From Chiloscyllium plagiosum (taxonomy: Eukaryota), in contig NC_057717.1 in the NCBI RefSeq assembly GCF_004010195.1, positions 102,855,676-102,919,675 of the forward strand: a stretch of 64,000 nt of DNA, read 5' to 3'. Below, piece by piece: positions 4,484 to 61,980 of this stretch; within the stretch, counting starts at the first letter, position 1; each line of letters opens with the position of its first letter. The notes below the pieces were generated by a model. That model ran no database searches, was not told the DNA's origin, and saw nothing but the letters and a program-made list of their open reading frames with translations. The position numbers were made by a program, and so were the translations under genes.

Positions 4484-4588
4484 GTTCTGAGGAAGGGTCA
4501 TTCACCCCGAAACATTTAACCCTGCTTTCTCTCCACAAATGATGCCAGCCCTGCTGAGCTTTTCCAACAATTTCTGTTTCTGTTTCTG
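4484..4588 (+). mobile_element. Penelope-like element 3' end with hammerhead motif (family C)
   Basis: CTGAGGA-A-GGGT cattc ACCC-c-GAAACATT followed by the gatgcc..cctgctgagcttttcc tail shared with copies at ~24965-25070, 30865-30965, 48640-48728 and 51190-51262. Confidence 0.65.
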
Positions 4589-5075
4589 CAAAAGTGAATA
4601 ACCTTCTAATTGCAAACTTTACTGCCACAGATAAGGGGAGGAAATTACCTATTGCAATCTCTGAGGTTCTAATAACAGAATTAAAAAAAAAGTCACAAAA
4701 GGAATGTGATTTATCCAGTCGCTCGAACTCAGTGATTGCAGACTCACCTGACATCCTATTTCTGAAGGGAGTAATTAATTGGTTTGTTTTAGTTTAGTCA
4801 CTTAGGAATGCAATATTGGGAGATCTTAGGAAATCCACGGCATAATTTCTTTAGTAACAAGCAGCTCAGGGTTTTGTAAATTGTAATGATACCATCACCA
4901 TGACTGAAGGGTGAATGAAGTTAATCAACTGTTCAGTTCTCAATGCGATTCACACGCCACATATTCAAGGGAAAGTCTGCAAACTGAAGAATTTTCTTGA
5001 AAGGGGGTTTTGGATGGGACTTGAATGTGAATATATCACATTGACTATCTGTTATACAAGGTCCTTGCCCTTTTT

Positions 5076-5278
5076 TGTCTGTGTGTGTGTATCTGTCTGT
5101 ATATTTGTGTGTGTGCGCCTGTGCGTGTGTGTGTCTGTGCGTTTCTGTGTGTGTGCATGGGTTTTTTGTGTGTCTGTGCCTGTGTGTGTGTATGCGCGCG
5201 CATGCGTCTGTGTCTGTGTGTGTGTGTGTGTCTGTGCGTGTATGCGTGTGTGTGTGAGTGAGTCCGTGCATGTGTGTA
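5076..5278. repeat. Imperfect (TG)n microsatellite
   Basis: Read directly. Confidence 0.95.
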
Positions 5279-5500
5279 GTTGGTGGAAACACTGGGGTTT
5301 GTTTTGTGCTGTGTAATTAATCACACTCTAGTTACTAAACACGTCAGTGACTCGATTCCTCCCCCTCCTCAAAAGGCAGTCGTACCTACCTCTCTGCAGG
5401 AACACTAACCCCACACTGTGACACTGTACCATATTCTGATTGTTGCATGCTGTCAGAGTCTCATTATTTCAAACACAGCCCCTCTTTCTCTCTCTTACAG

Positions 5501-5554
5501 GGACCACCTGGACCTCCAGGGTCAGAGGGGCGAGAGGGTCTCAAAGGTGAAAAG
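5501..5554 (+). CDS. col5a3: Collagen exon (54 bp): GPPGPPGSEGREGLKGEK
   Basis: Pyrimidine tract + ttacag, gtatga donor; matches the type V/XI GPPG..G.EGR.G.KG.K exon. Confidence 0.93.
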
Positions 5555-6083
5555 GTATGACTATTTTATGTAAAAGAAAAGATGATAACAACCAAACTTT
5601 TACACCAAGTTTCACGAAACTACGATTGTGAAATTTACTAGAACGCATTTCCCACTGAATTTCCTCAGGGCATGGTCCATTACCACTGGGTCTGCCTCAC
5701 CGCGATTTGGACTTTTACAGTGAGCGTCGGAGGGCTATTTGGCTTTGGGGTGCATCACTGATAAATTAAGTCCGTCCTCACCTGAAGCTATCGGTTCCCA
5801 TTTTCCAGTCGCAGCTGGAAGAGGAAACATGAGTGTCTAATCCCTGGCGTACAGAGGGTTCCTGGTTTAGGAGCACAGACCAATACAGGGGTCTCAATTT
5901 AAATCTTGGACATTCGAGAGATGGTGATGTTGTCATGGTTGGTAGTGTTTGAGCTACTGTGCCTGTTCACTTCAGGCCACTCCCATCCTTGTGTCTCTCT
6001 CTCTCTCTCTCTCTCCTTTTCTTCTTTTCTCTTCTCTTTCTTCATCTTCCTGACGTTATGGGGAGGTGGGAGAGTTGGCAGTG

Positions 6084-6612
6084 CCTGGAGCGGGGATTCC
6101 TGGCTGTGGTGGGCCTGGAGTGGGGATTCCTGGCTGTGGTAAGCCTGGAGTGGGGATTCCTGGCTGCGGTGGGCCTGGTGCGGAGAATCCTGGGTGCAGT
6201 GGGCCCGGAGTGGGGATTCCTGGCTGTGGTAAGCCTGAAGTGGGAATTCCTGGCTGCGGTGGGCCTGGTGCAGAGAATCCTGGCTGCGGTGGGCCTGGAG
6301 TGGGGATTCCTGGCTGCGGTGGGCCTGGAGTGGAGAATCCTGGGTGCAGTGGGCCCGGAGTGGGGATTCCTGGCTGCGGTGGGCCTGGCGTGGAGAATCT
6401 TGGGCGTGGTGGGCCCGGAGTGGGGATTCCTGGCTGTGGTAAGCCTGGAGTGCGGATTCCTGGTTGTAGTGGGCCTGGTGTGGAGAATCCTGGGTGCAGT
6501 GGGCCTGGAGTGGGGCTTCCTGGCTGCGGTGGGCCTGGTGCGGAGAATCCTGGGCGCGGTGGGCCCGGAGTGGGGATTCCTGGCTGTGGTAAGCTTGGAG
6601 CAATGATTCCTG
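6084..6612. repeat. G-rich minisatellite, 30-bp unit GGGCCTGGAGTGGGGATTCCTGGCTGCGGT, about 17 copies
   Basis: Exact 30-bp register with no indels. Confidence 0.97.
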
Positions 6613-8800: not shown

Positions 8801-9225
8801 GAGTCTATTGACCCCCAACATTCCAAATGCGGCCCGACCAGAGCCTTAAACAGCCTCAGCAGTACATATCTGCTTTTCTCTTGAAATGAATGTTGACATT
8901 GTATATGGCTTCCGAACTGCCTAACGAAGGGCTTATGCCCGCAACGTCGATTCTCCTGCTCCTCGGTTGCTGCCTGACCTGCTGTGCTTTTCCAGCGCCA
9001 CACTCTCGACTCTGATCTCCAGCATCTGTAAGTCCTCACTTTCGCCTTCCTAGCTGCTACCTCAACCCATGTGTTAACCTTATAAAAACACAAGCTAGGA
9101 TCCCCCTCCAAAATACTTTGTGCTTCAGATTACTGAAGTCTTTCCCCATTTAGAAAATAGTCTATGCCTCTATTCTTCCCACCAAAGTGCATAACCTCAC
9201 ACTTCACATTGAATTCCAGCTGTCA
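8800..9225 (-). mobile_element. CR1 fragment interrupted by a Penelope-like family B end (~8920-9043, + strand)
   Basis: VLLRLFKALVGPHLEC motif; insert has a decayed hammerhead CTAACGA-A-GGGC ttat GCCC-GCAACGTC. Confidence 0.75.
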
Positions 9226-12313: not shown

Positions 12314-13178
12314 AGAGTCATAGAGATGTACAGCATGGAAACAGACCCTTCGGTCCAACCCGTCCATGCCGACCAGATACTCCAACCCAATCTAGTCCCA
12401 CCTGCCAGCACCCGGCCCATATCCCTCCAAATTCTTCCTATTCATATACCCATCTAAATGCCTCTTAAATGTTGCAATTGTACCAGCCTCCACCACATCC
12501 TCTGGCAGCTCATTCCATACACATATCACCTTCTGCATGAAAAAGTTGCCCCTTAGGTCTCTTTTATATCTTTCCCCTCTCACCCTAAACCTATGCCGTC
12601 TAGTTCTGGACTCCCCGACCCCAGGGAGAAGACTTTGCCTATTTATTCTATCCATGCCCCTCATAATTTTGTAAACCTCTATAAGGTCACCCCTCAGCCT
12701 CCGACGCTCCAGGGAAAACTGCCCCAGCCTGTTCAGCTGCTTCCTGTAGCTCAGATCCTCCAACCCTGGCAACATCCTTGTAAATCTTTTCTGAACCCCT
12801 TCAAGTTTTGCAACATCTTTCCGATAGGAAGGAGACCAGAATTGCATGCAATATTCCAACAGTGGCCTAACCAATGTCCTGTACAGCCGCAACATGACCT
12901 CCCAACTCCTGTAATCAAAACCCTGACCAATAAAGGAAAGCATACCAAACGCCTTCTTCACTACCCTATCTACCTGCGACTCCACTTTCAAGGAGCTATG
13001 AACTTGCACTCCAAGATCTCTTTGTTCAGCAACACTCCCTAGGACCCTACCATTTAGTGTATAAGTCCTGCGAAGATTTGCTTTCCCAAAATGCAGCACC
13101 TCACATTTATCTGAATTAAACTCCATCTGCCACTTCTCAGCCCATTGGCCCATCTGGTCTAAATCCTGTTGTAATCTG
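12314..13178 (-). mobile_element. Young CR1 (HER1-like) LINE 3' fragment nested in the older CR1
   Basis: Uninterrupted 253-aa RT C-terminal ORF 12392-13153 and agagtcatagag tail. Confidence 0.95.
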
Positions 13179-13179
13179 A

Positions 13180-13305
13180 TTGCTATAAATTCGGTGTCTT
13201 ACAATCTTATACTCCACAACCACCTGATGAAGGAGCAGTGTTCCGAAATCTAGTGCTTCCAGTTAAACCTGTTGGGCTATAACCTGGTGTTGTGTGATTT
13301 TTAAC
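13180..13305 (+). mobile_element. Penelope-like family A arm with hammerhead motif
   Basis: CTGATGA at 13224, stem GGAGC/GTTCC, GAAATCTA (one substitution versus GAAAGCTA). Confidence 0.8.
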
Positions 13306-14184
13306 TTTCCTTGAGATCCACCATCTCCCTGATTTTCCCAGTCCACCTGCATGCTGAAGTCCCTGTGTCTTTTGTAATGCTGCCTTCCTCCCATGTCTTT
13401 TCCATCCCCAGCTTTATTTTCTTCCCCGTACCCTGGCTACTGGTAGGAAGCCTGTACCCCACTCCTTTTAGGGTCTTTTTTTTCCTTTGAGGTTCCTCAA
13501 CCCTCACAGATTCTATGCTTTTCAACTTCAATTTTTGCTGTTGATTTAATATCATTTCTCTCTAACAAAGCAAATCTGTCACAACTGTCCATCTGCCTGT
13601 GCTTCCTGGATCCCCTGCCTGCCCTTCCCATCCTCTGCTTCTGAAGGCAGTAATTGTTAAAATGAGTGCGTGTGTTCCACACTGGACGCATGTAGATTCA
13701 ACCCTCCTGCCAATTTCAGGAGCATTGGCTGGAGATTTGCCAGTCTGGTGATGGGTCTACCCGTAGCTTCAGCCACCCACACAGCCGACTTGAACAGAAA
13801 TGCCTCTCTGTCTTGGTGACCCCAGAATGAACTGCCAAGGTTCTGCAGGGAGGCAGTGTCTGACTGTGGAGGGGGGTTCATCCAGCAGTCATAGCCATGG
13901 GGAAACAGTTCGAGATTCCAAATCAAACTTTCAGTGTCAGAATGAGAACCCCCCCCCCCCACAACCCCTCACCCAATCCGGCCCATTTCACTGTCAGGCT
14001 CCAGAGGGAGACAAGGAACATCAAGTAACCACTTCTGTGTGTGTGTGTCTATGTGTGTATCTCTCTCTCTTTATGTCTGCAAGTGTTTGTTTATGTGAGA
14101 GGGAGAGTGTGTGTGTCTGTATGTATGCATGTGTGAGTTGCTTGCCTTGAATTGTTTAACTCTCTGTTTGCTTCCATTGCTTAG

Positions 14185-24005: not shown

Positions 24006-25149
24006 AAGTAATTAAGATTCTAATCAGCCATTGTCCAATTGATGGTTATTCCTTGTTTTCACTTCTCTGGCTCCTTTACCAATTATTTTAAACCTGCTCT
24101 CCAAACCCAGTGATCTCTGACTAGCAACGTTCCCCTTTATCTAAACTCTTCAGCATTTTAATCTCCTCTCTCAAGCCCCCTCTGAGCTCTCTTGAAAGCT
24201 CGATTTCAGTCCATTGATGCGACTTGAACATTTGGTCTGTAAAAACATTGCTGTGGTGATGAACAGGATATATTATTTTCCCCACTGTACAATTTTCTAA
24301 GGTATCTGCTTGTTGGTCTGTCTGACTGACACATTGGCTGTATCAATTGGAAATACACTTCCCTCCTTTGTCTTTGATCCTAGCCTCATGGGATCGTATA
24401 AAAAGACACACAAAAGAAATGTTCATCTACCTCAAAGGTTGTTGTGATTGAGTTGTCACGGTTACTTGAGAGCATTTACGCCTCTGGGTTTCATGTCTGA
24501 CACCAAGGCTTGGTAACATACCAACCATCAGTCAAGTTATCTTTCCCTTGAAATGTTCTCACTTGCTAATTCATTTGTGAAGTTATAATAAGGGGTTGAG
24601 ATCAAACATCTCTCCTCGACTCCATTCTGCAAATTTATTAATCATTCCTGACGTGGCTGCGGAGTAAATTGTAATTTATTGTAATATTTATAAGATTGTA
24701 ATATTTAAGAGGGAGTTGGATCGGTGCTTAGAGGGAATGATTGAAAGGCTTGAAGGAGAGAGTGGGAGGAATGGGGGTGGGGAAGGGAGACATTGGGGGA
24801 GAGAGGGTGGGTAGGGATTATGGAGGGATGGGATGGGGGAGAGGGAGGGGTGGTGTTGAAAGTGAAATGCTGGGTGTGGGTGAAGCAGGCGATTCAGATT
24901 AAATTTAAAATATCAAAATTGAGAAATAAACCCAACCAGACACTAAAATGAAAGAATACTGTAAACCTGAAATGAACACGGGGAATGTTGGAGAGTCTCA
25001 GCAGGTCTGGCAGCATCTGAGGAGAGATTAACAAAGTTAACGTTTCGAGTACAGTGACGCTTCTTCGAAACTCGTTCAGTCATAAAGGACAAATGGCATT
25101 TGGAGAAGACCTTTTGACACAAAGTGTTAATTCTATGTTTGGTATAACT

Positions 25150-25290
25150 CTGATGTGGAGGTGCCGGTGTTGGACTGGGGTGTACAACATCAGATATCAG
25201 ATGATACCTGACGAAGGCGCAGCACTCTGAAAGCGCTGATTTCAAATGAATCTGTTGGACTATAACCTGGTGTTGTCTGACTTCTGACCA
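25150..25290. mobile_element. Decayed Penelope-like family A insertion
   Basis: Inverted tail plus CTGACGA...GAAAGC arm; ggtataa on both flanks. Confidence 0.65.
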
Positions 25291-25905: not shown

Positions 25906-26015
25906 CGAAACGTCGATTTTCCAGCTCCTCGGATGCTGCCTGAACTGCTGTGCTTTTCCAGCACCACTCTAATCTAGAATCTGGTTTCCAGCATCTGCAG
26001 TCGTTGTTTTTACCT
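25906..26015 (+). mobile_element. 5'-truncated Penelope-like family B end inserted in SINE family 2
   Basis: 12-bp duplication AGCGATAATGCC at 25894-25905 and 26016-26027. Confidence 0.8.
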
Positions 26016-26764: not shown

Positions 26765-27910
26765 AGGCCATAAGATATAGGCCATTTGGCCCATTGATTC
26801 TGTTCTGCTATTCGATCATGGCTAATATGTTTCTCAAACCCATTCTCCTGCCTTCTCCCTGTAACCCTTTACCACCTTCCTAATGGCTAAGTGGGGGGAC
26901 CACGGTGGCTCAGTGGTTAGCACTGCTGCCTCACAGCACCAGGGTCCCAGCTTGAATTCCAGCCTCGGGCGACTGTCTGTGTGGAGTTTGTACATTCTCC
27001 CCATGTCTGCGTGGGTTTCCTCCAGGCGCTCCGGTTTCCTCCCACATTCCAAAGATGTGCAGGCTCGGTGAATTGGCCCAAGCTAAATTGCCCACAGTGT
27101 TAGCTGCATTAGCCAGAGGGAAATGGGTCTGGGTGGGTTGCTCTTCAGAGGATCAGTGTGGACTTGTTGGGTCGAAGGGCCTGTTTCCACTCTGTAGGGA
27201 ATCTAATCTAATCAAGAACCTATCTGCCTCAATCTTAACTACACAAAATCAGAAGTCACATGATGCCAGATTATAGTCCGACAGGTTTATTTCAAATCAT
27301 AAGCTTTTGGAGTGCTGCTCCTTCATCAGGTTCACTGAAAAAGGTGATTTCAAATACACCTTTTGGACAATAACCTGGTGTCATGTCACTTCCGATTTAT
27401 CCACCCCAATCCAACACCAGCATCTCCACATCTTAAAGACACTCAATGACTTGGCCTCCACAGCCCTCTGTGGCAATGAGTTCCACAGATTCCCCACCCT
27501 CTGGCTGAGGATATTCTACCCCATCTCAGTTCTAAACCTTCACCCTGAGGCTGTGCCCTTGGGTCCTGGTCTCTCCTACTGGTGGAAACATTTCTCTCCA
27601 CGTCCACTCTATCCAGGCCCCTCAGTATTGAGTAAGTTTCAATCAGATTCCCCCTCACCCTTCTGAACTCCATCAAGTACAGACCCAGAGTCATCAACTG
27701 CTCCCCATACGACAAGCCCTTCATCCCCAGGATCACTCTTGTAAACCTCCTCTGGACCCTCCCTCCAAGGCCAGCACATCCTTCCTTAGATACAGGGTCC
27801 AAAGCTGCTCACAATATTTCAAATGCAGAATGACCAGAGCCTCATACTACCTCAGCAGTACATCCCTGTTCTTTCATTCTAGCCCTTACTAAATGCTATC
27901 GTTGCATTTA
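26765..27910 (-). mobile_element. CR1 LINE 3' fragment containing an HE1 SINE (~26893-27212, +) and a decayed Penelope-like fold-back (~27240-27430)
   Basis: RVQRRFTR..LGMKGLSY...EFRR.RG.LIETY ORF remnant; SINE A/B boxes. Confidence 0.85.
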
Positions 27911-28584: not shown

Positions 28585-28950
28585 GTTAAAAATCACACAA
28601 CACCAGGTTATAGTCCAACAGGTTTAATTGGAAGCACTAGCTTTCTGAGTGCTGCTCCTTCACCAGGTGGTTGTGGAGTACACAATTGGCAGACACAGAA
28701 TTTATAGCAAAAGTTTACAGTGTGATGTAACTGAAATTATATATTGAAAAATTTTTCAATGTATAATTTCAGTTACATCACACTGCAAACTATAAATTCT
28801 GTGTCTTACAATTGTGCCCTGCACAACCACCTGATGAAGGAGCAGCGCTCCGAAAGCTAGTGCTTCCAAATAAACCTGTTGGACTATAACCTGGTGTTGT
28901 GTGATTTTTAACTTTGTACACCCCAGTCCAACACCGGCACCTCCACATCA
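28585..28950. mobile_element. Non-coding fold-back Penelope-like insertion (family A)
   Basis: Inverted arms 28585-28750 and 28751-28912, 38-nt tail, duplication TTGCTGCACAGT at 28573-28584 and 28951-28962. Confidence 0.88.
28828..28862 (+). ncRNA. Minimal type I hammerhead ribozyme (intact core)
   Basis: CAC-CTGATGA-A-GGAGC agc GCTCC-GAA-AGCT-A-GTG: stem I CAC/GTG, 5-bp stem II, palindromic stem III. Confidence 0.8.
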
Positions 28951-29530: not shown

Positions 29531-30177
29531 TCTTTCTCCCTTGTGTGTCTGTCCAGCTTCCCCAGTGAATACAGCAGTGCTGTTCAACCTTAACCACTCC
29601 CTCCAGCAACCAGTTCCACATTCTGTCCTGCACCCGCACCACTCTTGAGTAAAAGAGGTTGGTTTTCCATTCCCCATTGAATTGATCAGTTACTTTACTG
29701 CTCTCCTGGAGTTTTGTTCCTCCTGGATGGCAAGTACTTTTTAAAGTATCTCCTATTGAACTCCCTTTCATAATGCCAAAGAACTCTATCAGGCAACCTT
29801 GGATTCAATAGATGAACTGTTTCACAAATGCAGCGGGACCAGCCAGTAGCATACCCAGGCAGAATGACAGAATTGTTATGGCACAGAAGGAGAGTGTTCA
29901 GCCTATCATACAAGCTCTATGCTCTAGTGCCAATATCCTGTCTATTTCCCATACCCCAGCACACTGTTTCTATGCAAGTAATCATCTCATGTTGTCTTGA
30001 ATGTCTCCAATGAACTTGCTGTCCATCACACTGCCAGGCATTTCCAGACTCTCACTGCTCACTGAGTGAAAGCTTTTGTCTCACATTACCTTTGCTTTTG
30101 TACCTCCCATTAAAGGAGCTCCTGATTTATCTATCAAGTGACAATACCATTATTCACTGCCTTCCTACAGTAGCCAT

Positions 30178-30735
30178 GATGTTGGACTGGGGTGGACAAA
30201 GCTAAAGATCACACAACACCAGGTTGTAGTCCAACAGTTTAGAACATAGAACATAGAACATAGAAAAATACAGCGCAGTACAGGCCCTTTGGCCCCTAAT
30301 GTTGCGCCGATCCAAGCCCACCTAACCTACACTAGCCCACTATCCTCCATATGCCTATCCAATGCCCGTTTAAATGCCCATAAAGAGGGAGAGTCCACTA
30401 CTGCTACTGGCAGGGCATTCCATGAACTCACGACTCGCTGAGTAAAGAATCTACCCCTAACATCTGTCCTATACCTACCCTCCTTAATTTAAAGCTATTC
30501 CCCCTCATAATAGCTGACTCCATACGTGGAAAAAGATTCTCATGGTCAACCCTATCTAAACCCCTAATCATCTTGTACACCTCTATCAAGTCTCCAATGA
30601 AAACAGCACTGCTCCATCATCCGGTGGTTGTGGGGCAGGATTCTGACCTGATGAAGGAGCGGCGCTCCGAAAGCTAGTGCTTCCAAATAACCCTGTTGGA
30701 CTACAACCTGGTGTTGTGTGATTTTTAACTTTGTC
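30178..30735. mobile_element. Penelope-like family A fold-back interrupted by a CR1 3' end (~30241-30595, minus strand, (ATAGAAC)n tail)
   Basis: Left arm broken at 30240; right arm 30646-30730 intact. Confidence 0.8.
30646..30679 (+). ncRNA. Minimal hammerhead ribozyme (intact core)
   Basis: CTGATGA-A-GGAGC ggc GCTCC-GAA-AGCT-A-GTG; stem I is only 2 bp here. Confidence 0.72.
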
Positions 30736-31160
30736 CCTAGAGTAGAATGTCAAGGCACAGTGATGGGACCCTGTAAAAGGAAGCCGGGACCTCCTCTAGT
30801 CTTTGTATCAAACTTCCCCCTCTTTGTGGTGATGCCAACAGCCAATGGCAAAGATTTCAACCTCAAACAAAACCAGAAATTACTGGAATAGCTCAACAGG
30901 TCTGGCAGCATCTGTGGAGAGATATCAGCGTTAGCATTTCCGGGCGAATGACCTTTCTTCAGAAGGTTTCAACCTCTCCCTTTCTGAAGCACTTCCTATT
31001 GCAGTTACCAATCGGAACTGATGTAGTTTGTCCTGTTTATTGTCCATCTCTGCATGTGACCCACTCAGTGACTATCCCCAGTGTGTCTGCACTGGGGCTG
31101 ACTAATTGTCATACTGTCTCTGACAGCTCCTGTCATGTCCACACTCTCTGACTTTTCCAG

Positions 31161-39459: not shown

Positions 39460-40303
39460 AGGTAAAAATCACACAATGCCAGGTTATAGTCCAACAGGTT
39501 TATTTGGAATCACTTGCTTTCAGAGCTCTGCTTCTTCATCAGGCGGTTGTGGAGCAGAATCATAAGACACATAATTTATAGCAACAGGATTGTAGTGTCA
39601 TGGAATGTAATATTAAATAAATTTAGCTTAAGTCTTTCATTTTTTAGATGACCATGTTAGTTTCAATCCCTTCAAACATAACTTCAAAAAAGTTCTGGGA
39701 TTTATGTTCTCAAGATAGCTTTAACAATAGATGCCATCTCACTCCAGATGAAGGTGTGAAGTTACAGTCTGTCTGTGTCCCAATGTCAGGTCCTGATTCT
39801 AATTCTTAAGTGGGAGTTACAGAATCTTATATGGATTTATGCAGTTTTTGAGCAGAAGAAAATGTAATTCTGCAAGTACAAATTCACCCCCCAAGTTTAT
39901 ATGTGTGTGTGTGTGTGTGCAGGGTAGACCAAGTGAGTGTGTGCATGTGGGTGTGTGTGTGTGCAGGGGAGACCAAGTGAGTGTGTGCATGTGGGTGTGA
40001 GCGTGAGCGTGAGCATATGAGAGAGAGCTTGTGTATGAGAGAGGGTCTGTGTGTGTGTGTATGCACACGCTTGAGTGTATGTGTGAGAGAGTGTGGTGTA
40101 GTGAGGCAATTTGTTGAATATTACATTCCATGACACTGCAATCCTGTTGCTTTCAATTCTGTGTCTTATAATTCTGCTCCACAACCACCTGATAAAGGAG
40201 CAGCGCTCTGAAAGCTAGTGTGCTTCCAAATAAACCTGTTTGACTATAACCTGGCGTTGTGTGATTTTTAACTTTGTACACCACCGGCACCACCAAACCA
40301 TGA
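39460..40303. mobile_element. Longer Penelope-like family A insertion with inverted ends and internal (TG)-rich tract
   Basis: Duplication TTACCTTGACAA at 39448-39459 and 40304-40315; both hammerhead copies carry substitutions. Confidence 0.85.
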
Positions 40304-44401: not shown

Positions 44402-44805
44402 TTCATCAACTGCCTCCGTTGCTCTCGATGTGGCCTCCTCAACGTTGGGGAGATAGAACGCTAACTCGCGGGGTGGTTCAGGGAGTATCTCTGGGACACA
44501 CGCACGAAACAACCCCACCGCCCTGTAGCCAACTCCTTCCACTCTCCCAAGGAGGTGCCAGTCCTGGGCCTCCTCCGTCGCCAAATCAAAGCCACCCACC
44601 AACTGGAGGAATAACGCCTCATCTTCCGCCTCGGGACCCTATAACCACACAACGTCAACATCGATTTCACCAGTTTCCAAATCTCCCCGCCCCCCCACCT
44701 CTTTCCGGATCCAATGCTGAGGCGCTTATGCCTGAAACCTCGACCCCGCTGCTCCTCGGATGCTGCCTGACCTGCTGTGCTTCTCCAGCGCCACACTGTT
44801 CGATT
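44402..44805 (+). pseudogene. Penelope-like element GIY-YIG endonuclease C-terminal remnant plus family B 3' end
   Basis: Frame from 44402 reads FINCLRCSRCGLLNVGEIER*L..WFREYL...PVA.....VLGL......LEE*RLIFRLGTL*PH.VNIDF, followed by a decayed hammerhead at ~44717-44742. Confidence 0.85.
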
Positions 44806-45301
44806 TTTGAACTCCTGCCGAGCCAAGAGGTTGGCCATTGAATCCCCATTATCCGTAAATGTAGTGCAAAGTGTAGCTGCTGTTTCCTAGACAATCCCTT
44901 CAGCAGGAACTGTTTCTCAAGTTTCACTGATCACGTTTAACCACAGCACTCTAGGGAGGGAGAGAGAGAGAGAAGCTGTCCCCTAGGAACCTAAGCTGCA
45001 AAATCTTGGCAGTTTAAGTGGGAGGTATACATGTCTCTACCCACAGGGGAATACAAATCCTTTCATGAGTTGATGTGTGTGAGTGTCAAGCTCTGTTAAG
45101 ATGATTCAGTTCAACTAGCCCTAGAGAGTCACACAGCTGCTGTTATCCTAGTGAAGGAATACCAATTTCACTTTAAGAGTGTTAGAGATTACAGTAGGTG
45201 GATTCGCCTCTGTCTTCACCTCTGTCTCCCTCATGCATTTTCACTTTTTCATGGCTCATTATGTCTGAGGAAGATCTTTCTTCGCTATGTCTATTGCTGT
45301 G

Positions 45302-45530
45302 TTAAGTTAAAAATCACACAACACCAGGTTACAGTCCAACAGGCTTATTTGGAAGCACTAGCTTTCGGAACGCTGCTCCTTCATCAGGTGGTTGTGGAGC
45401 AGAATTTTGACCTGATGAATGTGCAGCGCTCCAAAAGCTAGTGCTTCCAAATAAACCTGTTGGACTGTAACCTGGTGTTGTGTGATTTTTAACATTGTCC
45501 ACTCCAGTCCGACACCAGCTCCTCCGCATC
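45302..45530. mobile_element. 229-bp non-coding fold-back Penelope-like insertion (family A)
   Basis: Arms 45306-45389 and 45410-45493, 37-nt tail, 15-bp duplication ATGTCTATTGCTGTG at 45287-45301 and 45531-45545; intact hammerhead on the minus strand at 45356-45390. Confidence 0.9.
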
Positions 45531-48294: not shown

Positions 48295-48937
48295 CAGCCT
48301 CAAACATACACAAGGACTCTGCCCTACAGCTCTCTGTGGCAAGGAGTTTCAAAGACTCACAACACTCTCAGAGAAGAAATTCCTCCTCATCTCAGTCTTA
48401 AATTGGCACCCCATCACTCTGAGGGTATACCCTGTGTACCCTGGACTCTCCCATGAGGGAAACATCCTCTCAGCATTAACCCTTAAGAATCTGATATGTT
48501 TCATTGAGATCGCTCCTCAGTCTTCTAAACTCCAGTGAGTAGGATTCCAACTCCGGGATTGATTGGTGGCAGGATCGCAAACAAGGAACACCCAAACAAT
48601 TTTACAAGAAGTGCAGCTCATCAAGTTATCGGAAAACACACAAAAGCAGAAATAGCTGGAGAAACTCAGCAGGTGTGAAAGAGAGAATCCGAGTGAAGGA
48701 TTTGAGTCCAGTAACCCTTCTTCAGAAGTGAAAGGAGAATGTCAGACACCCTGTCTACAAGGCTCTGTATTCCCTCCAGCCCTGGCTTGGGCAGCTTCCA
48801 GGATGTAGAAAGGTTCAAGTAATCCACATCTGATCCTGAGAGTCAGGTTGCCATGATGATTCTGTCCTTTTCTGTGTGCTCTTTATGAGCTGTAATTTAA
48901 CAAGTTTCTTTAGTCTGCTTCGATGAGTCGTTTTTAA

Positions 48938-49310: not shown

Positions 49311-51399
49311 CACACACACAGAAATGCAGAAGCAAACACAGGAACATACATACACAGAAACACACATGCAAACACTGAGACATACACACAACCACAGACA
49401 CACACACAAACACAGAGATTCACACATGTACACACACACAGAAACACACATGCAGACACACGCACACATACACACACTCAAACCAGAGAAACCCACATCT
49501 CAGCCAAATCCCACAAATCACTGATTGGCTTACGGCTCTTTGGGCTTTTCCAGGAAGAGGTAGCATAGCCAGAGCTCCCATTGGCTGACTAGGTCCCCAG
49601 AGCCTCAGCAAGCTCACTCCCTGTGAATGGGAAATCTATTTCAAATATGAATAATGTTTCAATTTACTATTACAGTCAAAATTGATGCCTTAGGCACTCA
49701 GGGACAATATTCATGCAGCTGTCGTCACATGTTTCCCCAATTTTAATTTCCCTTGTGGAACTGAGCTCTCCATCCCTTTATGTTCCTATATGATATAGTT
49801 AATAAGAAACACTACATCAGTGTTCATGTTTTATTTTGACTGCTTGTTTTTCATGTGTTGCATCTTCCATTTCATTGCGTTCAAACCAATGTGAATTGGT
49901 TCTGTGGAATTCTCCCAATGATACTGATGGCTCGTGCTGGGTAATACAGTTTGGGGGACATGTCCAAATCGACAAATCCAGATTAAGATGTGGTCAGACC
50001 ATGAGACCACTTTGGTTACTCACTCTTCATTGGTTGGAGAACAAAATTAGTTGCTATTCCACAAAAGTGATATGAAATAAAAAGTGCGTGTTTCTTTGAT
50101 CTTGTTAGAGAGTGAGATGAGCAATTGGAACGGGTGGTGAATGTTGGTTTTGCCAGTGACGCCCACATCACATAAAAGAAAAATTAAACTTTGTTCTGAT
50201 GCCAGCTGATGTTATTACTGGACAAGTCAAATCACTAATTGAAATCTGGCTTGATAGATCATATTTAGTTTCTTAATTTGCTTTTAATGAGGTGATCTCC
50301 CACCGAAAACAAATATGCAATGTTGCAGATTTGTTTTTAATAAACAAAAAACTTATTACAAAAAAATGAATGAAGCTAAAATGAAATAAACTAAATCATT
50401 ACATTGAAAACAAACTTAAAGATTTCAATGCACATACAATCCCATTAATCACAAGCAAGCTTTTGCCAAATACCAAACAGAAAATCCTTCTCTTTTATAT
50501 CTAACCTTAATTAAACTGTGACTTCAATTCCGTATTTTCAAAATCTGATAGCTTCTTCCCAGGACCTTAATGCAACTCAATTTAAACTTTTGCTCTTCAA
50601 GCTTTTATCCAAGCACTTCTGGTCTGGAAACTTTAAACTAAACTCCTTATACTGAGAGAACATCTTTCTTAACAGCGCCAAACTAGTTCCCTTTGTCAGG
50701 AATAACCACTTGACACATCTAGCTTCATGTTAAGATCACTGCAAACTGCCCAAAGTGAAACTATAATTTTTTTTTCCTTTTCCCCAAGACATGGTTGTTT
50801 CTTTCAATCAAAAGAAAAATCAATACTTCGCCTTCTAAACAGTAACTTTATACACAACTCTTCACTTTGTTCACTCATAAAAACCTCCCAATTGTAACAA
50901 ATTCTGATGAGCCTCCCCAGTTTGTCTTTCAGACTGCTTGAAAACAAAAAAAAAATATGGGCTACAGAAACACATACAGGTTAATGTTTAAACCCATTCA
51001 GGGACACAGAAATCCCACGTGCTACTGAGTCAAAATTCAAAGATCCAAAATAATTAATATTAAAATATATATAAATAACAAACCTTATATCACAAAATAA
51101 TTAGGAAGCCTAAAGCAAACTGGGAGATGTGAAAACACAGTGCTGAAAGGAACTGGAACAACGAAAATACGACTGAAAAACAACTGGGGCTCACAGTGGG
51201 TCAGGCAGCATCCATGGAGAGAGCAAGTTAACATTGTGAGTCTATATGACTCTTCATCAGAACTGAATATTTGTTGTTTTCAGTTCAGATTCTGCAGTAA
51301 TTCTCTCCTTCGATGAAAATGCAAAACAGATGTCGCACCCAGGATGTGAAAAACAAGAGATAAAAAGAGATGAAAAAGAGATTCCGACTTTTGTACCCC

Positions 51400-56445: not shown

Positions 56446-56476
<31 letters not shown>

Positions 56477-56586: not shown

Positions 56587-58289
56587 TTTCTTACCATAGA
56601 TGCTGACAGACCTGCTAAGTTGTGCCAGCAATTTCTGTTTTTGTTTCAGATCACCAGAGTCTGTAATTCTTTTATTCATGAATTTAATCCTTTTCCCAGC
56701 AACATCCTTCACAGACACTCAAGCTACCCAGACCATGGTGGTAGAGGAGGCAGCCTGTCAGTAGAAGAGTTTAAAATTGATAAAGAGGAGAATTGCAGAA
56801 CAAGCAATCGTGATATGAGAAAGAAAGCCTTTCTATACAGTGCGTAGACAGGGTCTGGAGCGCATTCCCTGGAAATGTGGTGGAGGCAGGTTCAATCAAG
56901 GATTTGGATGGTCATTTAAATTGAAACAATGTGTCAGTTATTGGGGAAAAGGCAGGAGATTGACACTAAGTTAAAGTGCTAGAGAGCTGGTGCAGACACA
57001 ATGGGCCAAATGGCATGCTTATGTATCATAACCATTCTGTGATTCTATGAATTGCAAGCCTCTGATTTGCTCGTGTGGCCTCAGATTATATGGCTGGTTC
57101 AGTTCTGGTAAAAACAAAAGTGAATTTTGAACAAGAATGTGAAATTTCTCCAATTAAAAGACCAAACATTGACCAAACGATAATCTATTAAACTATAGTT
57201 GGAGAATAGAAGCATGCTTGAAAACTATTTAGATGTTTAATCTAATTTTGGTTATTGACCCCCATTCTAAAAATCAAGAAGGGAAAGACATGAGGTAAAC
57301 TCTTTGTTTTTTTTCTATTCAACAACTGCTGCTCTCATCTGGCAATGGAACTGGTCAATTTTGAAGGAATTCTCTGGAGCAATTATTGGGGGAGGTTTCT
57401 CTTCCATACAGGACTTCACCCCTTAACTGCCTAATTCCTGTCTGTTACTATGCTGCTCATAGTACATTACATTTTTGAATGTCTGTAAACATTATTATAG
57501 TGGCTCGTCCAATGCCAGTGTTCCTCTCCTTCAAGAAATGATTGAAAACTTCTGACAGTATTCCAGCTATGGTCTGACCAGTGCCTTGTATAGTTTTAGT
57601 GTATGCATGTGGGGACAAGATATTATTTAGAAAAACAGATTAAATGGAAAGTAGGTATAGTTTGCAGGGACTGTAGACACTATCATTAACTTCTTTACCT
57701 CAGTGGTAAAACTGTTTCTTCTCTTCCACAACAATTTAATAATTGAATGGCTTCGCTCTGCAGTCTAGCATTGGTACAATAACAACATAGCTGATCATTC
57801 ACCTATGTGGGAGGATGATTGGCATGTCACACATCCTGAGTCGATGCCATAGGATCCTTCAAAAGAGATCAAATAGAGCATTGTGCTGAATTGTACAGGT
57901 GTCAGACTTTGAACTGCAATTGGCATCGTTCCGTAACCTGAAGCAATTTCACTCCAATTATTAATAATTGCACCAATTATTCATGATTTGCAAATCTTCC
58001 GATGCACTATTAATGATGTGAAGAGCAAATATTTGATTTGTTTTTTGGTGGGATACCGACTAATGACATATCTGAGTTTTGAATGTGGTGTACAGACATT
58101 CCAAACAGATAACCGAGTAAGAGAGAGGTTTAGTCTGCATGAGAGTCCCTAATAATTAAGTATTACCCATGGCTGGGTTGCCAATATTTCTGTGGGGTTG
58201 AGGCGGATGGTGATATATATTGGCTATGTTTCTAGAAATAACATACATGCCTGCTCTAATGCTCTTGTGACATGAGTTCAAATCCCAGC

Positions 58290-59128
58290 GTGAGATGATA
58301 TTATGGCTTTAAAAGTTGTATTTTGTCCTGCGTTTTTTTTAAGAGATGTTTTGAGTAATAGGTGGTGAGAAGTCTCCTCCAAGCCAATACAATAAACAAC
58401 TCGTGAGGCTTTAGTCTTTATTTAAAGTTGCAACAATAGAAACAGCCTGAATGGGTGGAGTCAGGAACCAGGTTTTTGGTTTAGCTGTCAGTAGTGGTTG
58501 GTGCTTTGAAGTTGACTGTGGAACCTTTCTCTTTCACTCTACCAGAACTTTCTCTCTCTGCTGCCAGCATTGCATGCAAGACAATCTGTTTTACTGAACT
58601 TGCCTTTGCCAAGGGTGCATTTGTGGGATGTTATGATATTGAAACGGCTGCTGTTTAGTAGTTAAATAATCTATTATTGTGTTAAGTTTTCCAATAAGGT
58701 TAAACCAATTCTTCTTCCTTTTGTTTGTATTTAATTATAGGGTAAGAATAAAGTGTGTTTTGTTTAAAGCCGAATAGTGTAGCCAGTCGAATTACATCTG
58801 GAACGCTGCACCTTACACTTGCCTTTAAATAGGATAAAAGTTAGGGTCTCAGCTATTGCCTTGATATATTTTATAGGGGTTTGGTCTGCACCATAATAAC
58901 TTCCCAAACCTCAACAACTACTGAATGCTAAACTAAAACCCTAATTGAGTGGGAACCTGAGTCCACCCATTCAGGCTACGTCTACTATTCCAACTTCAAA
59001 ATAAAAACCCAAGGCCTCAAAAGCTGTTTATTGACTTGGAGGAGACATCTCAGCTTAAGGCTCAAAATCTCTCTTCAAAACAAAGACCAGGACAAAATGA
59101 ATTTCTAAAAGCCATGGTGCCATCACAT
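58290..59128. mobile_element. Probable solo LTR (58290-58900) abutting an inverted partial copy of its 5' part (58900-59128)
   Basis: Similarity to 20771-21404; gaatgggtggagtcagg is mirrored by cctgagtccacccattc. Confidence 0.55.
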
Positions 59129-59869
59129 CTGTGTGACCATTGGAGGAAGTTAAATTGATTAATAAATCTGGAATATGATAGTGTACACGGAACTATCACT
59201 GATTCTTGTAAAAGCCCATTGGTGCCCTGTTGAGAAGGAAGTCTAGCCTACATGTGATTCCATACCCACTCTTAACTCTATATCACAGAAGAGACCTTTT
59301 AGTCCACTGACAAAAATTACTCTGAATCTACACCAGGTCCTTGCACTTGGTCCACAGCCTTCGAAGTTATGACATTTCAGGAACTCAGAGCTCATCCAAG
59401 CACTTCTTAAAGTAGATTTGTGAGGTTTTCCATCTTAACTACCCTCCCACAGGGTAATCAGTAAGCAGACCTCATTGGCTGTGAAGCACTTTGACACGGT
59501 GTAAAACAGCGAAAGTCTTCGGAGTCGTGTGGGGCAAATCAGAAAGTGGAAAATGACAGGTACTCGGGACTTTGTACGTGGGATTCTAGGACAAACTCAA
59601 AAGCAGAGCTGTCCATTTTAGACTGCCTTGTATTAGATTGTAAGTGTTAATATCTGGGACCTCACACAATGATGATACAATGGAAGGCACGACTGAGAGA
59701 CTTGGAGAGAGATTGATGATAACTCAACAACAGAAAGATAGAAACATGGAAAGCTGTCTATAGACTTCCACATGCAACAAACTAATTGTTTGCACAAAGA
59801 ATGAGTAACTCTCTAAAGCTGGATCAACCAATAAATTATGTCAGTTAGCACTCAGAGAGTTGTTACAAT

Positions 59870-60093
59870 TAGCGAGTTTTGAGAAGATTTGTAGCTGAGG
59901 TTGTGGTTCTGGATGTAGGTTTGTTCGCTGAGCTGGAAGGTTCATTTTCAGATGTTTCATCACCATTTTAGGTAACACCTTCAGTGATCCTCCGGATGAA
60001 GGCTTTATTCGGAGGCTCGCTGATGATGTTACCCAGTATGGTGATGAAACATCTGAAAACGAACCTTCCAGCTCAGCAAGCAAACCTACATCC
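59870..60093. mobile_element. Fold-back Penelope-like insertion, family D
   Basis: Palindrome 59909-60095 centred on 60002, 39-nt tail on the left, duplication AGTTGTTACAAT at 59858-59869 and 60094-60105; hammerhead motif 60017-60056. Confidence 0.85.
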
Positions 60094-61654
60094 AGTTGTT
60101 ACAATGTGCATGAAACAAGGATGCAGTAATTTTCATAGATAGATAGATAATAGGAATCAGCCAATCTGTCCTTTGAGCCTGCTCCATCATTCAGTATGAT
60201 TATGGCTGATCATCCAACTCAATACTTTTTGATCCCTTTGGCCCAAAGAGCTATATTTAACTCCTTCTGAAAATATTCATTTTGTAACCTTCCACCAAAG
60301 AGCTTACACAGTTTACTCAATGTTTTGATCATATTATGTTCAATTATGTGAGTCTGGTTACTGACCCATGCTCACTGTGCTTGATTGGTTAAGTCTGGGT
60401 GTTGCTCAGAAAAAAGCAGACAGGCACCACAGAAAGAACTAGAAGTTAATTACAAGCATGAGTATTCAGTTTCAATAAAACCTGCAACCCATCAAGTCAC
60501 CATTGTCCTACCAGATAATAGGGTTGCTCTCTTATTAGAGAGACACACACACACAAACAAAACTGGTGGTGATTTAACCTGAGGGTCACAGCATCTCAGA
60601 TGAGGGGAGAGGTCTGTATGGAAACCTCAGCTGGTGTGGGGGTTGAACCCACACAATTGGCATCATATTACGTTGCAAGCCAACCATTTATGCCATCTGA
60701 GCTAAATCAACCCCCAACACAACAAAGTATGTGTCCAAGATTTAAAATATGCAATGCTGTAAGCTGGGCTAGTTCAACTGGGACAGTGGTGCTGACGGAC
60801 TCAGGTAAGAATCTTCTTTTGTAAAATCTGAGTCAGGAGGGAAAGGGATTATTTATCTTATTGGTATCTAGAATAATAGAATCAGGTCTATGATTAATTG
60901 TTCTTGTTGTATACTCTTTGCATATTTAACCAGGGCCCCAATTTAGAACCTGAGTTCTTCTGTTTTTAGATCCATTCAAATTGCTTTTCAAAGAGAGGGA
61001 TTACAAGGAACGTTCAGCACAGAAACAGACCATTTGGCCCAGTGATGGCAGTAATTATTCTCCACACGCACCTCCTCACATTGCTCATCACTTCATCCAA
61101 TCTGATACATTCTAAATGCTGGTGCACAGAGTAACGATTCTCAGTGATTGCCCCTGGGTCACGTCATCATTGACCGAGGTATGAAGTAATTACAGCAAAA
61201 TATGCTCAGCAGGGAAGCTGAGTATGTATAAAAGCAAAGTCAGAAACAAAAAATGAAATCTTCTCCAGATGAGGAAAAATGATTAAACCCTCACTCAATG
61301 TACACAGAACACTGAAAATTAAATCTTAAAATGCACAGCAGATCTGTAAAATATCAAAAATGCTTCAAACATTCATGAAGTACATTCTGAAGCAAGACCC
61401 TGGCTCTATTACATTTAGCATGCCCTCTGTGAGTGCCATCCCTTTCCTTACATGAGAGAGTCCTGTAGAGATATCACTAATTAAATTGAACAAATTACAG
61501 CTTGTCATGCACTCAGCCACTGTAGAAATCTTGCTCTATTGGGTCTAATTGGATTGAGGCTCATTTTATCTGAGCACCGATTACAACCTCAGAGTATGGC
61601 ACTCCAGCATCAACTGTGGGAATTCTCCGTGGCTGAAGGTTATATTGTCGCTCA

Positions 61655-61980
61655 ACAGGCAGGAGGCTGGACGAACACAGCAAGCCAGGCAGCATCGGGA
61701 GGTGCAGGAGTCGACATTTCGAGTGTAATCCTTCTCTAGGACTGGGGGTGGGTGTAGGGGGAGCTGCAGATAAAGGGGGCAGGATGGTGAGGTGGGTATT
61801 GGTCAATAAAAGTAGAGAGTACAATCTGGTCGGTCGATGGGAGGAATGAATCCGATAGGTAGCTGGAAGGAAGGGTCGATGTGAGGGAATAGCAGGGAGG
61901 GGGAGGGGCTGGGAAGGGAGTTGTTTGAACAGAGGTTGTTTGAAATTGGAGACTTCAAAGTTGTGACCTCTGGACTGTAT
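61655..61980 (-). mobile_element. Decayed Penelope-like 3' end (family B related)
   Basis: Last GIY-YIG residues (Q..G.N.E.SNFK) then pyrimidine-rich UTR, GAAATGTCGAC and gatgctgcctggcttgctgtg tail. Confidence 0.65.

What the first reader, a model, noticed from the sequence alone, without database searches (positions are those of the whole stretch)
4484..61760. About 20 minimal hammerhead-ribozyme motifs in 4-5 families spread through the window
Seen: a fixed core CTGA(T/G/A)GA...GAAA recurs while stem II differs completely yet stays paired. Family A is GGAGC/GCTCC (13224, 28831, 30648, 45356-45390 minus, plus decayed copies). Family B is GGGC/GCCC (33183-33218 minus; decayed at 8921, 25901, 44717). 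Family C is GGGT/ACCC or GAGTC/GACTC (4487, 51230-51262 minus and others). Family D is GTTACC/GGTGAT (60020). In intact copies stem III is a 4-nt palindrome (AGCT or ACGT) ending in a UH triplet, and the flanks pair as stem I. Established: Penelope-like retroelements carry minimal hammerheads with palindromic stem III that are thought to cleave as dimers. Inference: several ribozyme-bearing lineages have colonised this genome at roughly one motif per 3 kb. The class is known; I cannot tell whether these families are described.
Basis: partly seen in the sequence, partly recalled or inferred. Interest (0 to 1): 0.8.

Follow-up and report, generated by a model that had tools for sequence, protein, structure and literature searches.

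The report
Hammerhead ribozyme motifs in Penelope-like remnants
The window is peppered with short, mostly decayed leftovers of Penelope-like jumping genes, each carrying the tiny hammerhead ribozyme motif these elements are already known to carry, so the pattern is real but belongs to a described class.

Summary
I find 19 insertion loci in four repeat families (A, B, C, D), about 5% of the window. They carry 21 hammerhead-derived motifs plus 2 partial ones.

A strict minimal-hammerhead descriptor gives 6 hits against 0.007 expected. All six have one unpaired base after A9. Five open helix II with G10.1-C11.1; family D has G-U.

Helices I and II differ completely between families yet still pair. 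Helix III is the palindrome AGCU or ACGU, or a decayed form of it.

The Penelope-like element (PLE) link is now supported by anatomy, not only by the motif:
- nine loci have target-site duplications of 9-15 bp;
- inner (5') truncation points vary;
- head-to-head inverted arms are common;
- a 35-40 nt AC-rich "tail" sits on one arm only in 7 of 7 family A/D inverted insertions.

These are the published hallmarks of PLE insertions.

Only 4 motifs are fully intact. No reverse transcriptase or GIY-YIG endonuclease ORF lies in the window, and none of the motifs is in direct tandem. The copies here are therefore dead-on-arrival passengers.

Rfam does not detect them. I obtained no RNA evidence. The class is known (Cervera and de la Pena 2014). 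Whether these particular families are catalogued could not be checked.

The parts
4477..4599 (+). Family C copy. Motif at 4487-4512: boxes intact, helix II only 3 bp in register, helix III ACAU (CpG-decayed).
8919..9042 (+). Family B copy, decayed. Box 1 reads CTAACGA and box 2 reads GCAA.
13170..13308 (+). Family A single arm. Motif at 13224-13248: core and 5-bp helix II intact, helix III AUCU (not palindromic). It ends at the short 3' end.
24968..25071 (-). Family C copy. Box 1 is mutated (TCGAAGA, C3 at 25068). GAA, ACGU and H17 U are kept. Helix I is 5 bp.
25151..25283 (+). Family A insertion. An inverted tail-only piece (25151-25187) is followed by a forward arm with a decayed motif at 25208-25232, ending at the short 3' end.
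25906..26013 (+). Family B copy truncated at its 5' end inside the hammerhead; only C-GAAA-CGU-C is left. Target-site duplication 25892-25905 / 26014-26027 (13 of 14).
27241..27433 (.). Family A inverted pair. The minus arm carries a motif at 27305-27329 with G12 changed to A. The plus arm starts inside the motif and carries the long AC-rich tail.
28585..28950 (.). Family A inverted pair bounded by the 12/12 duplication TTGCTGCACAGT (28573-28584, 28951-28962). Arms 28577-28707 and 28790-28920 are 91% complementary. Motifs are at 28629-28674 minus (A6 changed to G) and 28823-28868 plus (fully intact, cleavage predicted after 28859). The tail is on the right arm only.
30177..30736 (.). Family A inverted insertion split by an unrelated nested repeat. 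The left arm (30177-30240) has the long tail. There is a partial minus motif at 30598-30631 and an intact plus motif at 30648-30672. The right arm ends short. Duplication 9 of 10 (30164-30173 / 30736-30745).
30865..30962 (-). Family C 98-bp insertion that begins exactly at C3 of the motif. Duplication 13 of 14 (30851-30864 / 30963-30976). Helix II is broken.
33098..33405 (-). Family B 308-bp single copy inside a SINE, with a 9/9 duplication GTTAAATTG (33089-33097, 33406-33414). The motif at 33191-33214 is fully intact: helix II GGGC/GCCC, helix III ACGU, H17 C, cleavage predicted after 33187.
39460..40303 (.). Family A inverted insertion bounded by the 12/12 duplication TTACCTTGACAA. Inverted repeats reported at 39511-39623 with 40108-40220 and 39456-39513 with 40220-40277, around 484 nt of unrelated TG-rich centre; the right arm runs on through the tail to the insertion end at 40303. 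Motifs at 39505-39550 minus and 40181-40228 plus are both decayed. The tail is on the right arm.
44712..44815 (+). Family B copy, decayed.
45302..45530 (.). Family A inverted pair bounded by the 15/15 duplication ATGTCTATTGCTGTG. Arms 45306-45389 and 45410-45493 are 94% complementary. The motif at 45350-45395 minus is intact with a G-U in helix II. The motif at 45404-45449 plus has G12 changed to A. The tail is on the right arm.
48638..48728 (-). Family C copy (C3 at 48725). Helix II has 5 pairs including two wobbles. Box 2 reads AAA.
51184..51346 (-). Family C insertion with a 10/10 duplication TGAAAAACAA and a short rearranged inverted arm. In the motif (C3 at 51260), helix II GAGUC/GACUC is perfect, helix I is 4 bp, box 2 reads ACA and helix III is AUGU.
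56587..56650 (+). Family C tail-only fragment with no motif, abutting the head end of an unrelated SINE copy.
59870..60093 (.). Family D inverted pair bounded by the 12/12 duplication AGTTGTTACAAT (59858-59869, 60094-60105). Arms 59909-60001 and 60003-60095 are 87% complementary. A 39-nt AC-rich tail (59870-59908) is on the left arm only. Motifs are at 60020-60049 plus (core intact, helix II 6 bp with G-U at 10.1-11.1, helix III ACAU) and 59955-59984 minus (box 1 decayed).
61665..61749 (-). Family B-like copy, decayed. Box 1 reads CTAGAGA and helix III is AUGU.

Best explanation
These are remnants of Penelope-like retroelement (PLE) insertions from at least three unrelated lineages: A, D and the B/C group.

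Why the motif is so common. Each insertion keeps the last 100-370 nt of the element. In PLEs that part includes the minimal type-I hammerhead of the pseudo-LTR. Here the predicted cleavage site lies 40-57 nt upstream of the proximal 3' end and 68-99 nt upstream of the distal 3' end, so almost every 5'-truncated copy drags the motif along. That explains a density of one per 3 kb.

Shown here: the motif and its features, the family structure, the target-site duplications, variable inner truncation, inverted arms, and two alternative 3' ends 35-40 nt apart.

Inferred from published PLE biochemistry: integration by a GIY-YIG endonuclease and reverse transcriptase that nicks and extends both DNA strands and starts copying at two internal AC-rich sites. 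This would give head-to-head arms, one with the tail and one without.

Inferred from the literature on this ribozyme class: in source elements arranged in tandem, two motifs pair through the palindromic helix III (AGCU or ACGU) and cut after GCUA (A), CGUC (B, D) or CGUU (C).

The copies in this window are almost certainly inert. They have no ORF and no tandem partner, 4 of 21 are intact, and CpG decay repeatedly hits C11.1-G12 and the ACGU helix III.
For: Motif far above chance.
- 6 strict hits against 0.007 expected; 4 against 0 once helix III and H17 are required.
- The hits belong to three repeat groups that neither nhmmer nor blastn can align to each other.
- All six strict hits have exactly one unpaired base, although 0-2 were allowed.

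Between-family compensation.
- Helix II reads GGAGC/GCUCC (A), GGGC/GCCC (B), GAGUC/GACUC (C) and GUUACC/GGUGAU (D).
- Helix I reads GUG/CAC, GA/UC, AACU/AGUU and UGA/UCG.
- H17 is A, C, U and C.

Within family A the 11 core positions are less diverse than the rest: mean pairwise difference 0.086 against 0.188, and 177 of 5000 random column sets are as low.

PLE anatomy.
- Exact or near-exact duplications of 9-15 bp at nine loci.
- Inner junctions at different points in every locus.
- Tail on one arm only in 7 of 7 family A/D inverted insertions.
- A split SINE with more than 8 unsplit paralogues fixes the family B boundaries.

Against: - None of 102 ORFs of at least 90 aa, and none of 42 further plus-strand ORFs of 50-89 aa between 20.8 and 32.4 kb, hits a reverse transcriptase or GIY-YIG family. 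The PLE link rests on anatomy and the motif.
- Rfam gives no hammerhead match even at E up to 10.
- Within family A there is no compensatory change. 81% of cells pair, which is no better than shuffles.
- Helix I is only 2-3 contiguous pairs in A, B and D, and it is absent from the minimum-free-energy folds of most copies tested.
- No family C copy is fully intact.
- For B and C the PLE-specific anatomy is thin: one rearranged inverted arm, at 51184-51346.
- Published work reports low in-vitro activity for such motifs (PMC4209133). It also reports that hammerhead mutants do not affect insertion in vitro, and that no RNA-seq reads end at the cut site in Anolis (PMC11167929).
Confidence: 0.85

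Rival explanations
1. The carriers are non-autonomous hammerhead elements (animal non-LTR retrozymes or SINE-like derivatives of PLE pseudo-LTRs) that spread through self-cleaved circular RNA, rather than truncated autonomous PLEs.
For: No ORF is attached to any copy. Family A and B frames starting at the AUG in the core hit stops. A 2026 preprint (10.64898/2026.07.22.740005, abstract and Results read) derives vertebrate retrozymes from PLE pseudo-LTRs and finds them in the one cartilaginous fish it sampled.
Against: Retrozymes are head-to-tail tandem arrays. Here 0 of 21 motifs is in a direct tandem, none of the 25 Tandem Repeats Finder rows covers a motif, and the pairs are inverted. Insertions show variable 5' truncation, which fits linear target-primed copying.
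Confidence: 0.08
2. Families B and C are 3' tails of a non-PLE retroposon (a LINE or its SINE) that happen to carry a hammerhead-like sequence.
For: B and C copies are mostly single arms with duplications of 9-14 bp, which L1- or RTE-type elements (recalled) also make. Only one locus shows an inverted arm. Helix I in B is 2 bp.
Against: The apparent junction of a C tail with a SINE at 56587 is at the SINE's head end and occurs in 1 of more than 10 SINE copies, so the tail is not shared. B and C have the same unpaired A, the G-C closing pair, the ACGU palindrome and the same motif-to-end spacing as A and D. The locus 51184-51346 has an inverted arm inside a 10/10 duplication.
Confidence: 0.07
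3. Families A and D are foldback or MITE-type DNA transposons with long terminal inverted repeats, and the motif has no relation to retrotransposition.
For: Inverted arms of 84-131 nt are flanked by direct duplications. They give long hairpins that hit miRNA models below threshold.
Against: - The inner junction differs in every locus, with arms from 28 to about 170 nt and some asymmetric.
- One arm always carries an extra 35-40 nt (7 of 7).
- Copies with one full arm (13170-13308) or one full arm plus a tail-only piece (25151-25283) exist.
- Duplications vary from 9 to 15 bp.
- A cut-and-paste element would keep fixed symmetric ends and a fixed interior.
Confidence: 0.03
4. The hammerhead resemblance is a chance motif that was amplified because it sits in abundant repeats.
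For: Copy number inflates raw counts. Within-family pairing shows no covariation.
Against: Counting families rather than copies, three unalignable groups carry the strict motif against 0.007 expected hits per window. All have the same optional features and a similar position relative to the 3' end.
Confidence: 0.02

Closest known systems
Minimal hammerheads (min-HHR) in the pseudo-LTRs of metazoan Penelope-like elements (Cervera and de la Pena 2014, PMC4209133)
   Same: CUGANGA and GAAA boxes, one unpaired base after A9, a G10.1-C11.1 pair, no loop III with palindromic 15.2-16.2, and a short helix I. There are many consensus families per genome, most copies are single or in opposite-strand pairs, and few are attached to full elements.
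   Different: Helix II here is 4-6 bp; the paper describes 7-8 bp for Schistosoma and 6 bp for D. virilis. No copy here is joined to an ORF. The density of about 1 per 3 kb would, if genome-wide, exceed the 4,000-9,000 motifs that paper reports for coelacanth and Xenopus. I could not establish whether cartilaginous or other fish families like these were in its supplement: 2 files were searched and 1 was not readable.
Poseidon element PAc of Anolis carolinensis (PMC11167929)
   Same: The hammerhead sits near the pseudo-LTR/ORF junction. There are two alternative 3' ends separated by a 30-40 nt AC-rich tail. Both target strands are used, which fits head-to-head arms. In family D the frame from the AUG inside the core stays open to the insertion end, which lies about 110 nt downstream on the arm that carries the tail; in PAc reverse transcription starts at 111-118 nt.
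   Different: Families A and B have stops in that frame. There is no sequence similarity, and a search with the 40-aa family D peptide found nothing.
Small hammerhead variants of PLEs that cleave as dimers (Lunse, Weinberg and Breaker, RNA Biol; seen only as a reference and in a review's description, PMC6765202; the paper itself is not held)
   Same: Very short palindromic helix III and proposed dimer activity.
   Different: Activity is untested here, and no tandem partner is present in the window.
Animal non-LTR retrozymes (PMC7229834, listing and abstract only; 10.64898/2026.07.22.740005, Results read)
   Same: Type-I hammerhead, non-autonomous, related to PLE pseudo-LTRs.
   Different: Retrozymes are direct tandem arrays. 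The copies here are single or inverted.
Rfam hammerhead families (family names recalled: Hammerhead_1, Hammerhead_3, HH9, HH10, Hammerhead_II)
   Same: Same catalytic core.
   Different: No match at gathering score or at E up to 10. I infer this is because these motifs lack the closed helix III that I expect those models to require.

Membership tests
PLE minimal hammerhead (min-HHR) | Core boxes CUGANGA and GAAA | tested here: met
   Both boxes are exact in 11 copies. They are recognisable but mutated in 10 more.
PLE minimal hammerhead (min-HHR) | Helix II closed by G10.1-C11.1, preceded by one unpaired base after A9 | tested here: met
   All 6 strict hits have a bulge of exactly 1 when 0-2 were allowed. 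The closing pair is G-C in A, B and C, and G-U in D, where the C of a CpG may have decayed.
PLE minimal hammerhead (min-HHR) | No loop III; palindromic 15.2-16.2; H17 is not G | tested here: met
   AGCU-A in 3 family A copies and ACGU-C in 1 family B copy. ACGU-U in one family C copy, and ACAU or AUGU in the others.
PLE minimal hammerhead (min-HHR) | Helix I formed by the flanks | tested here: inconclusive
   A has 3 bp plus 2 after a mismatch, B has 2 bp, C has 3-5 bp, D has 3 bp. Helix I is absent from most minimum-free-energy folds. The literature accepts 2-5 bp.
PLE minimal hammerhead (min-HHR) | Self-cleavage, as monomer or dimer | not testable with these tools
There is no bench assay.
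Penelope-like element insertion | ORF with telomerase-like reverse transcriptase plus GIY-YIG endonuclease | tested here: not met
   0 of 144 ORFs scanned hit such families. The bounded insertions are 98-844 bp, too short to hold such an ORF.
Penelope-like element insertion | Variable 5' truncation with an adjacent inverted 5'-truncated copy | tested here: met
   Seven family A/D insertions and one family C insertion show this, each with a different junction.
Penelope-like element insertion | 30-40 bp tail at one end only | tested here: met
   Family A has about 35-38 nt and family D has 39 nt, both AC-rich. The tail is on one arm in 7 of 7 insertions.
Penelope-like element insertion | Hammerhead within the terminal repeat, near the 3' end | tested here: met
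   The cleavage site lies 40-57 nt from the short end and 68-99 nt from the long end. I counted these from the sequences and boundaries.
Non-LTR retrozyme | Head-to-tail tandem units, each with a hammerhead | tested here: not met
   No Tandem Repeats Finder array covers a motif. All paired motifs are inverted.
Rfam hammerhead families | Score at or above the family's gathering threshold | tested here: not met
   0 matches at gathering score and none at E up to 10.

The most novel reading that the evidence does not exclude
If this window is typical of its genome, these PLE tails make up about 5% of the DNA. They would supply on the order of 60-90 motifs per megabase that pass the strict descriptors (4-6 in 64 kb). 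That is one to two orders of magnitude more than the 4,000-9,000 reported for coelacanth and Xenopus, and would make this one of the largest natural hammerhead reservoirs.

Some intact sense-strand copies also sit in introns of expressed genes. Two intact family A motifs lie 1.8 kb apart in the same orientation between two C-propeptide exons of a fibrillar collagen gene. They could pair in the pre-mRNA and affect its processing.
Probability: 0.15. Interest if true: 0.45.

Novelty: new member of a known kind. Interest (0 to 1): 0.25.

Why it matters
It matters mainly for annotation.
- Rfam-based pipelines miss these ribozyme motifs entirely.
- The inverted arms mimic miRNA precursors and could be mis-called.
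- The clean, duplication-bounded insertions are small natural records of PLE integration. One arm has the tail and one lacks it in 7 of 7 cases, which agrees with the recent in-vitro picture of priming on both strands from two internal sites.

It does not change what is known about hammerheads or PLEs.

Tried and rejected
- RNA evidence. No RNA holder was listed for 28400-33600.
- Whole genome. None is held for this window.
- Outside copies. Scans for family A (metagenome and viral contigs) and for the B/C pattern (metagenome contigs) returned 0 loci.
- Earlier scan notes. Nothing was found by place, by sequence or by words.
- Covariance model. The model built from 8 family A copies recovered 10 family A arms (E of 1.3e-5 or lower). 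It scored family B only at E = 8 and did not list C or D (their motif sites). It is family-specific, not a general detector. Its extra hit at 19032-19070 minus (E = 0.003) lacks a GAAA box and I treat it as chance.
- Structural alignment across families. MAFFT mis-aligned the nine motifs from families A, B and C, so between-family pair tables were made by script.
- Core variants. The U3-A8 core variant gave 0 hits.
- Dimer folding. It gave extended helix II duplexes, not the double hammerhead. This is uninformative.
- Six-frame Pfam scan of whole stretches.
- Family D peptide. The 40-aa search among longer proteins found no hit (after one search was too short).
- SINE tail idea. The idea that family C shares its tail with the abundant SINE was rejected, because the junction is at the SINE head and is unique to one copy.
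- Lunse et al. The paper is not held.

Full report
**What the window is.** It is eukaryotic DNA, and I take it to be vertebrate because of the fibrillar collagen gene it holds. On the plus strand lie the last exons of that gene, seen as Pfam COLFI hits in ORFs 20406-20789, 27960-28127, 32321-32686 and 33825-34202. The nearest solved chains are collagen alpha-1(III) and alpha-1(I) C-propeptides. The rest is interspersed repeats. No whole genome is held for it. My impression that the repeats look like those of cartilaginous fish is recollection only and was not tested.

- The loose pattern CTGANGA-N8-30-GAAA occurs 16 times against 5.8 +/- 2.4 expected, and 0 of 100 shuffles reach 16.
- Eleven matches fall in four repeat families. 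The other five have at most 2 pairs at the ends of the spacer and equal the chance expectation.
- Requiring helix II of at least 3 bp gives 10 hits against 0.78 +/- 0.87.
- A descriptor built from the published features gives 6 hits against a mean of 0.007 in 400 simulations. Those features are one unpaired base after A9, helix II of at least 4 bp opening with G, a loop of 3-8 and GAAA.
- Adding a palindromic helix III and H17 gives 4 hits against 0 in 400 simulations.
- When 0-2 unpaired bases were allowed, all six hits still had exactly one.
- The U3-A8 core variant is absent.
- Rfam finds no hammerhead at gathering score or at E up to 10. I attribute this to the missing closed helix III.

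**Families and counts.** Self-comparison and a covariance model built from family A give 19 loci, about 3.2 kb in total or 5% of the window.

| Family | Insertions | Motif sites |
|---|---|---|
| A | 7 | 10 full, plus one 5' half at 30598-30631 minus |
| B | 5 | 4, plus one copy truncated inside the motif at 25906 |
| C | 6 | 5 |
| D | 1 | 2 |

- That makes 21 motif sites with both boxes recognisable, plus 2 partial sites.
- A, D and the B/C group cannot be aligned to one another outside the core. B and C share a weakly similar tail (nhmmer E of 1e-3 to 1e-5).
- Fully intact by the strict descriptor: 28831 plus, 30648 plus, 45387 minus (A) and 33214 minus (B).
- 13224 (A) and 60020 (D) keep the core and helix II but have a non-palindromic helix III.
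- The other 15 have box mutations or a broken helix II.
- No family C copy keeps everything. Taken together, the five copies show CUGANGA, an unpaired A, GAGUC/GACUC, GAA, ACGU and U17 followed by AACU.

**Structure evidence.**
- Between families, both helices change on both sides yet still pair.

| Family | Helix II | Helix I | H17 |
|---|---|---|---|
| A | GGAGC/GCUCC | GUG/CAC | A |
| B | GGGC/GCCC | GA/UC | C |
| C | GAGUC/GACUC | AACU/AGUU | U |
| D | GUUACC/GGUGAU | UGA/UCG | C |

- Within family A there is no compensatory change. 81% of cells pair, which is no better than shuffles. That is expected if copies decay neutrally after insertion.
- Even so, the 11 invariant core positions are less diverse among the 10 arms than the rest. 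Mean pairwise difference is 0.086 against 0.188 for non-core non-CpG columns, and 177 of 5000 random column sets are as low. This is modest evidence that the source lineages kept the core.
- C11.1-G12 is a CpG. It was lost by transition in 5 of 10 family A arms, and in two of those the loss destroyed G12.
- The ACGU helix III is also a CpG, and it reads ACAU or AUGU in four of the five family C copies, both family D copies and one family B copy.
- Thermodynamic folds show helix II in four of seven tested copies but rarely helix I. Dimer folds are uninformative.

**What carries the motif.** Nine loci have flanking direct duplications.

| Locus | Family | Duplication |
|---|---|---|
| 28585-28950 | A | 12/12 |
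| 39460-40303 | A | 12/12 |
| 45302-45530 | A | 15/15 |
| 59870-60093 | D | 12/12 |
| 33098-33405 | B | 9/9 |
| 51184-51346 | C | 10/10 |
| 30865-30962 | C | 13/14 |
| 25906-26013 | B | 13/14 |
| 30177-30736 | A | 9/10 |

- The family B copy at 33098-33405 splits a SINE that has many unsplit paralogues in the window. This fixes its boundaries independently.
- The outer (3') ends are constant within a family, while the inner ends differ in every locus. One family C copy begins exactly at C3 of the motif, and one family B copy begins inside it.
- Seven family A/D insertions are head-to-head inverted pairs with arm identities of 87-94%.
- In all seven, one arm stops at a short end and the other runs on through an AC-rich extension of 35-39 nt.
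- At 25151-25283 the inverted arm consists of that extension alone.
- The predicted cleavage site lies 40-57 nt from the short end and 68-99 nt from the long end, depending on the family.

**Comparison with what is known.**
- Cervera and de la Pena 2014 (main text read) describe minimal hammerheads in PLE terminal repeats. Their list includes the unpaired base, the G10.1-C11.1 pair, the palindromic 15.2-16.2 and a short helix I. They also report many families per genome, motifs on opposite strands 100-700 bp apart, and low activity, probably as dimers.
- Craig et al. 2021 (passages) describe PLE insertions as highly 5'-truncated. These often have an inverted 5'-truncated copy alongside and a 30-40 bp tail at one end only.
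- PMC11167929 (passages) shows that an Anolis PLE protein cleaves and extends both target strands. It starts reverse transcription at two internal sites in an AC-rich stem-loop, and the tail is the stretch between them. That paper also found that hammerhead mutants do not impair insertion in vitro, and that no RNA-seq reads end at the cut site.
- The loci here fit this picture point by point, so I file the carriers as PLE-type insertions. One defining feature, the reverse transcriptase/GIY-YIG ORF, is absent from the window: 0 of 144 ORFs scanned hit such a family.

**Rivals.**
- A MITE or foldback reading fails on the variable inner junctions, the asymmetric ends, the single-arm copies and the variable duplication length.
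- A retrozyme reading fails because no motif is in a direct tandem.
- A LINE or SINE tail reading for B and C is weakened because the one apparent junction of a C tail with a SINE is at the SINE head and is unique. It cannot be excluded without full-length copies.
- Chance is excluded at the family level.

**Function.** The source elements presumably use the motif as proposed in the literature. Paired motifs in tandem transcripts would form an extended helix III and cut after the UH triplet. This is inferred and not shown here, and the literature itself leaves the role open.

The copies in this window are best seen as inert passengers. Their inverted partners would sequester the sense motif in long hairpins, which is why these regions hit miRNA models below threshold.

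**Gaps.**
- There is no RNA evidence.
- No outside copies were found.
- Dfam and Repbase were not available.
- One supplement file of the 2014 paper was unreadable, and bioRxiv supplements are closed. I therefore cannot say whether these exact families are already described.

**Verdict.** The class is known, and these are at most new members of it. Interest is low to moderate.

Noticed in passing
window 20406-34202, plus strand: Last exons of a fibrillar collagen gene. COLFI domain pieces lie in ORFs 20406-20789, 27960-28127, 32321-32686 and 33825-34202. Two intact sense-strand family A motifs (28831, 30648) lie between the exons at about 28.1 and 32.3 kb.
   Followed up: partly
window 20096-20286, 26902-27207, 32911-33522, 36642-36955, 49134-49311, 52013-52296, 54046-54227, 55739-55960, 56280-56587, 62401-62585: An abundant SINE-like repeat of about 300 bp. 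By eye, and not tested, its head looks tRNA-like. One copy is split by the family B insertion. The 52-nt tandem array at 37115-37341 overlaps matches to part of this repeat (37091-37454).
   Followed up: partly
window 28617-28882 and 59927-60077: The inverted retroelement arms form long hairpins that match plant and animal miRNA precursor models well below their thresholds. This is a likely source of false miRNA calls.
   Followed up: yes
window 59871-59981 minus and 60023-60094 plus: In family D the frame from the AUG inside the CUGAUGA box (AAG in the minus arm) is open to the insertion end in both arms (24 and 37 codons). This recalls the Anolis PLE, whose ORF starts at the hammerhead. A 40-aa search found no relative.
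   Followed up: partly
window 2444-3950 and 6083-6600: A satellite array with a 16/32/48-nt period, and a 30/150-nt tandem repeat that produces long low-complexity ORFs on both strands.
   Followed up: no
window 39624-40107: 484 nt of unrelated, TG-rich, partly tandem sequence lies between the two arms of one duplication-bounded family A insertion. Whether it is filler captured at integration or a later expansion is unknown.
   Followed up: no
window 21738-21880: A run of 143 N, which I take to be an assembly gap.
   Followed up: no
window 6768-6845 plus: A tRNA-like match at 27.4 bits, just under Rfam's gathering score of 29. It is possibly another SINE head.
   Followed up: no
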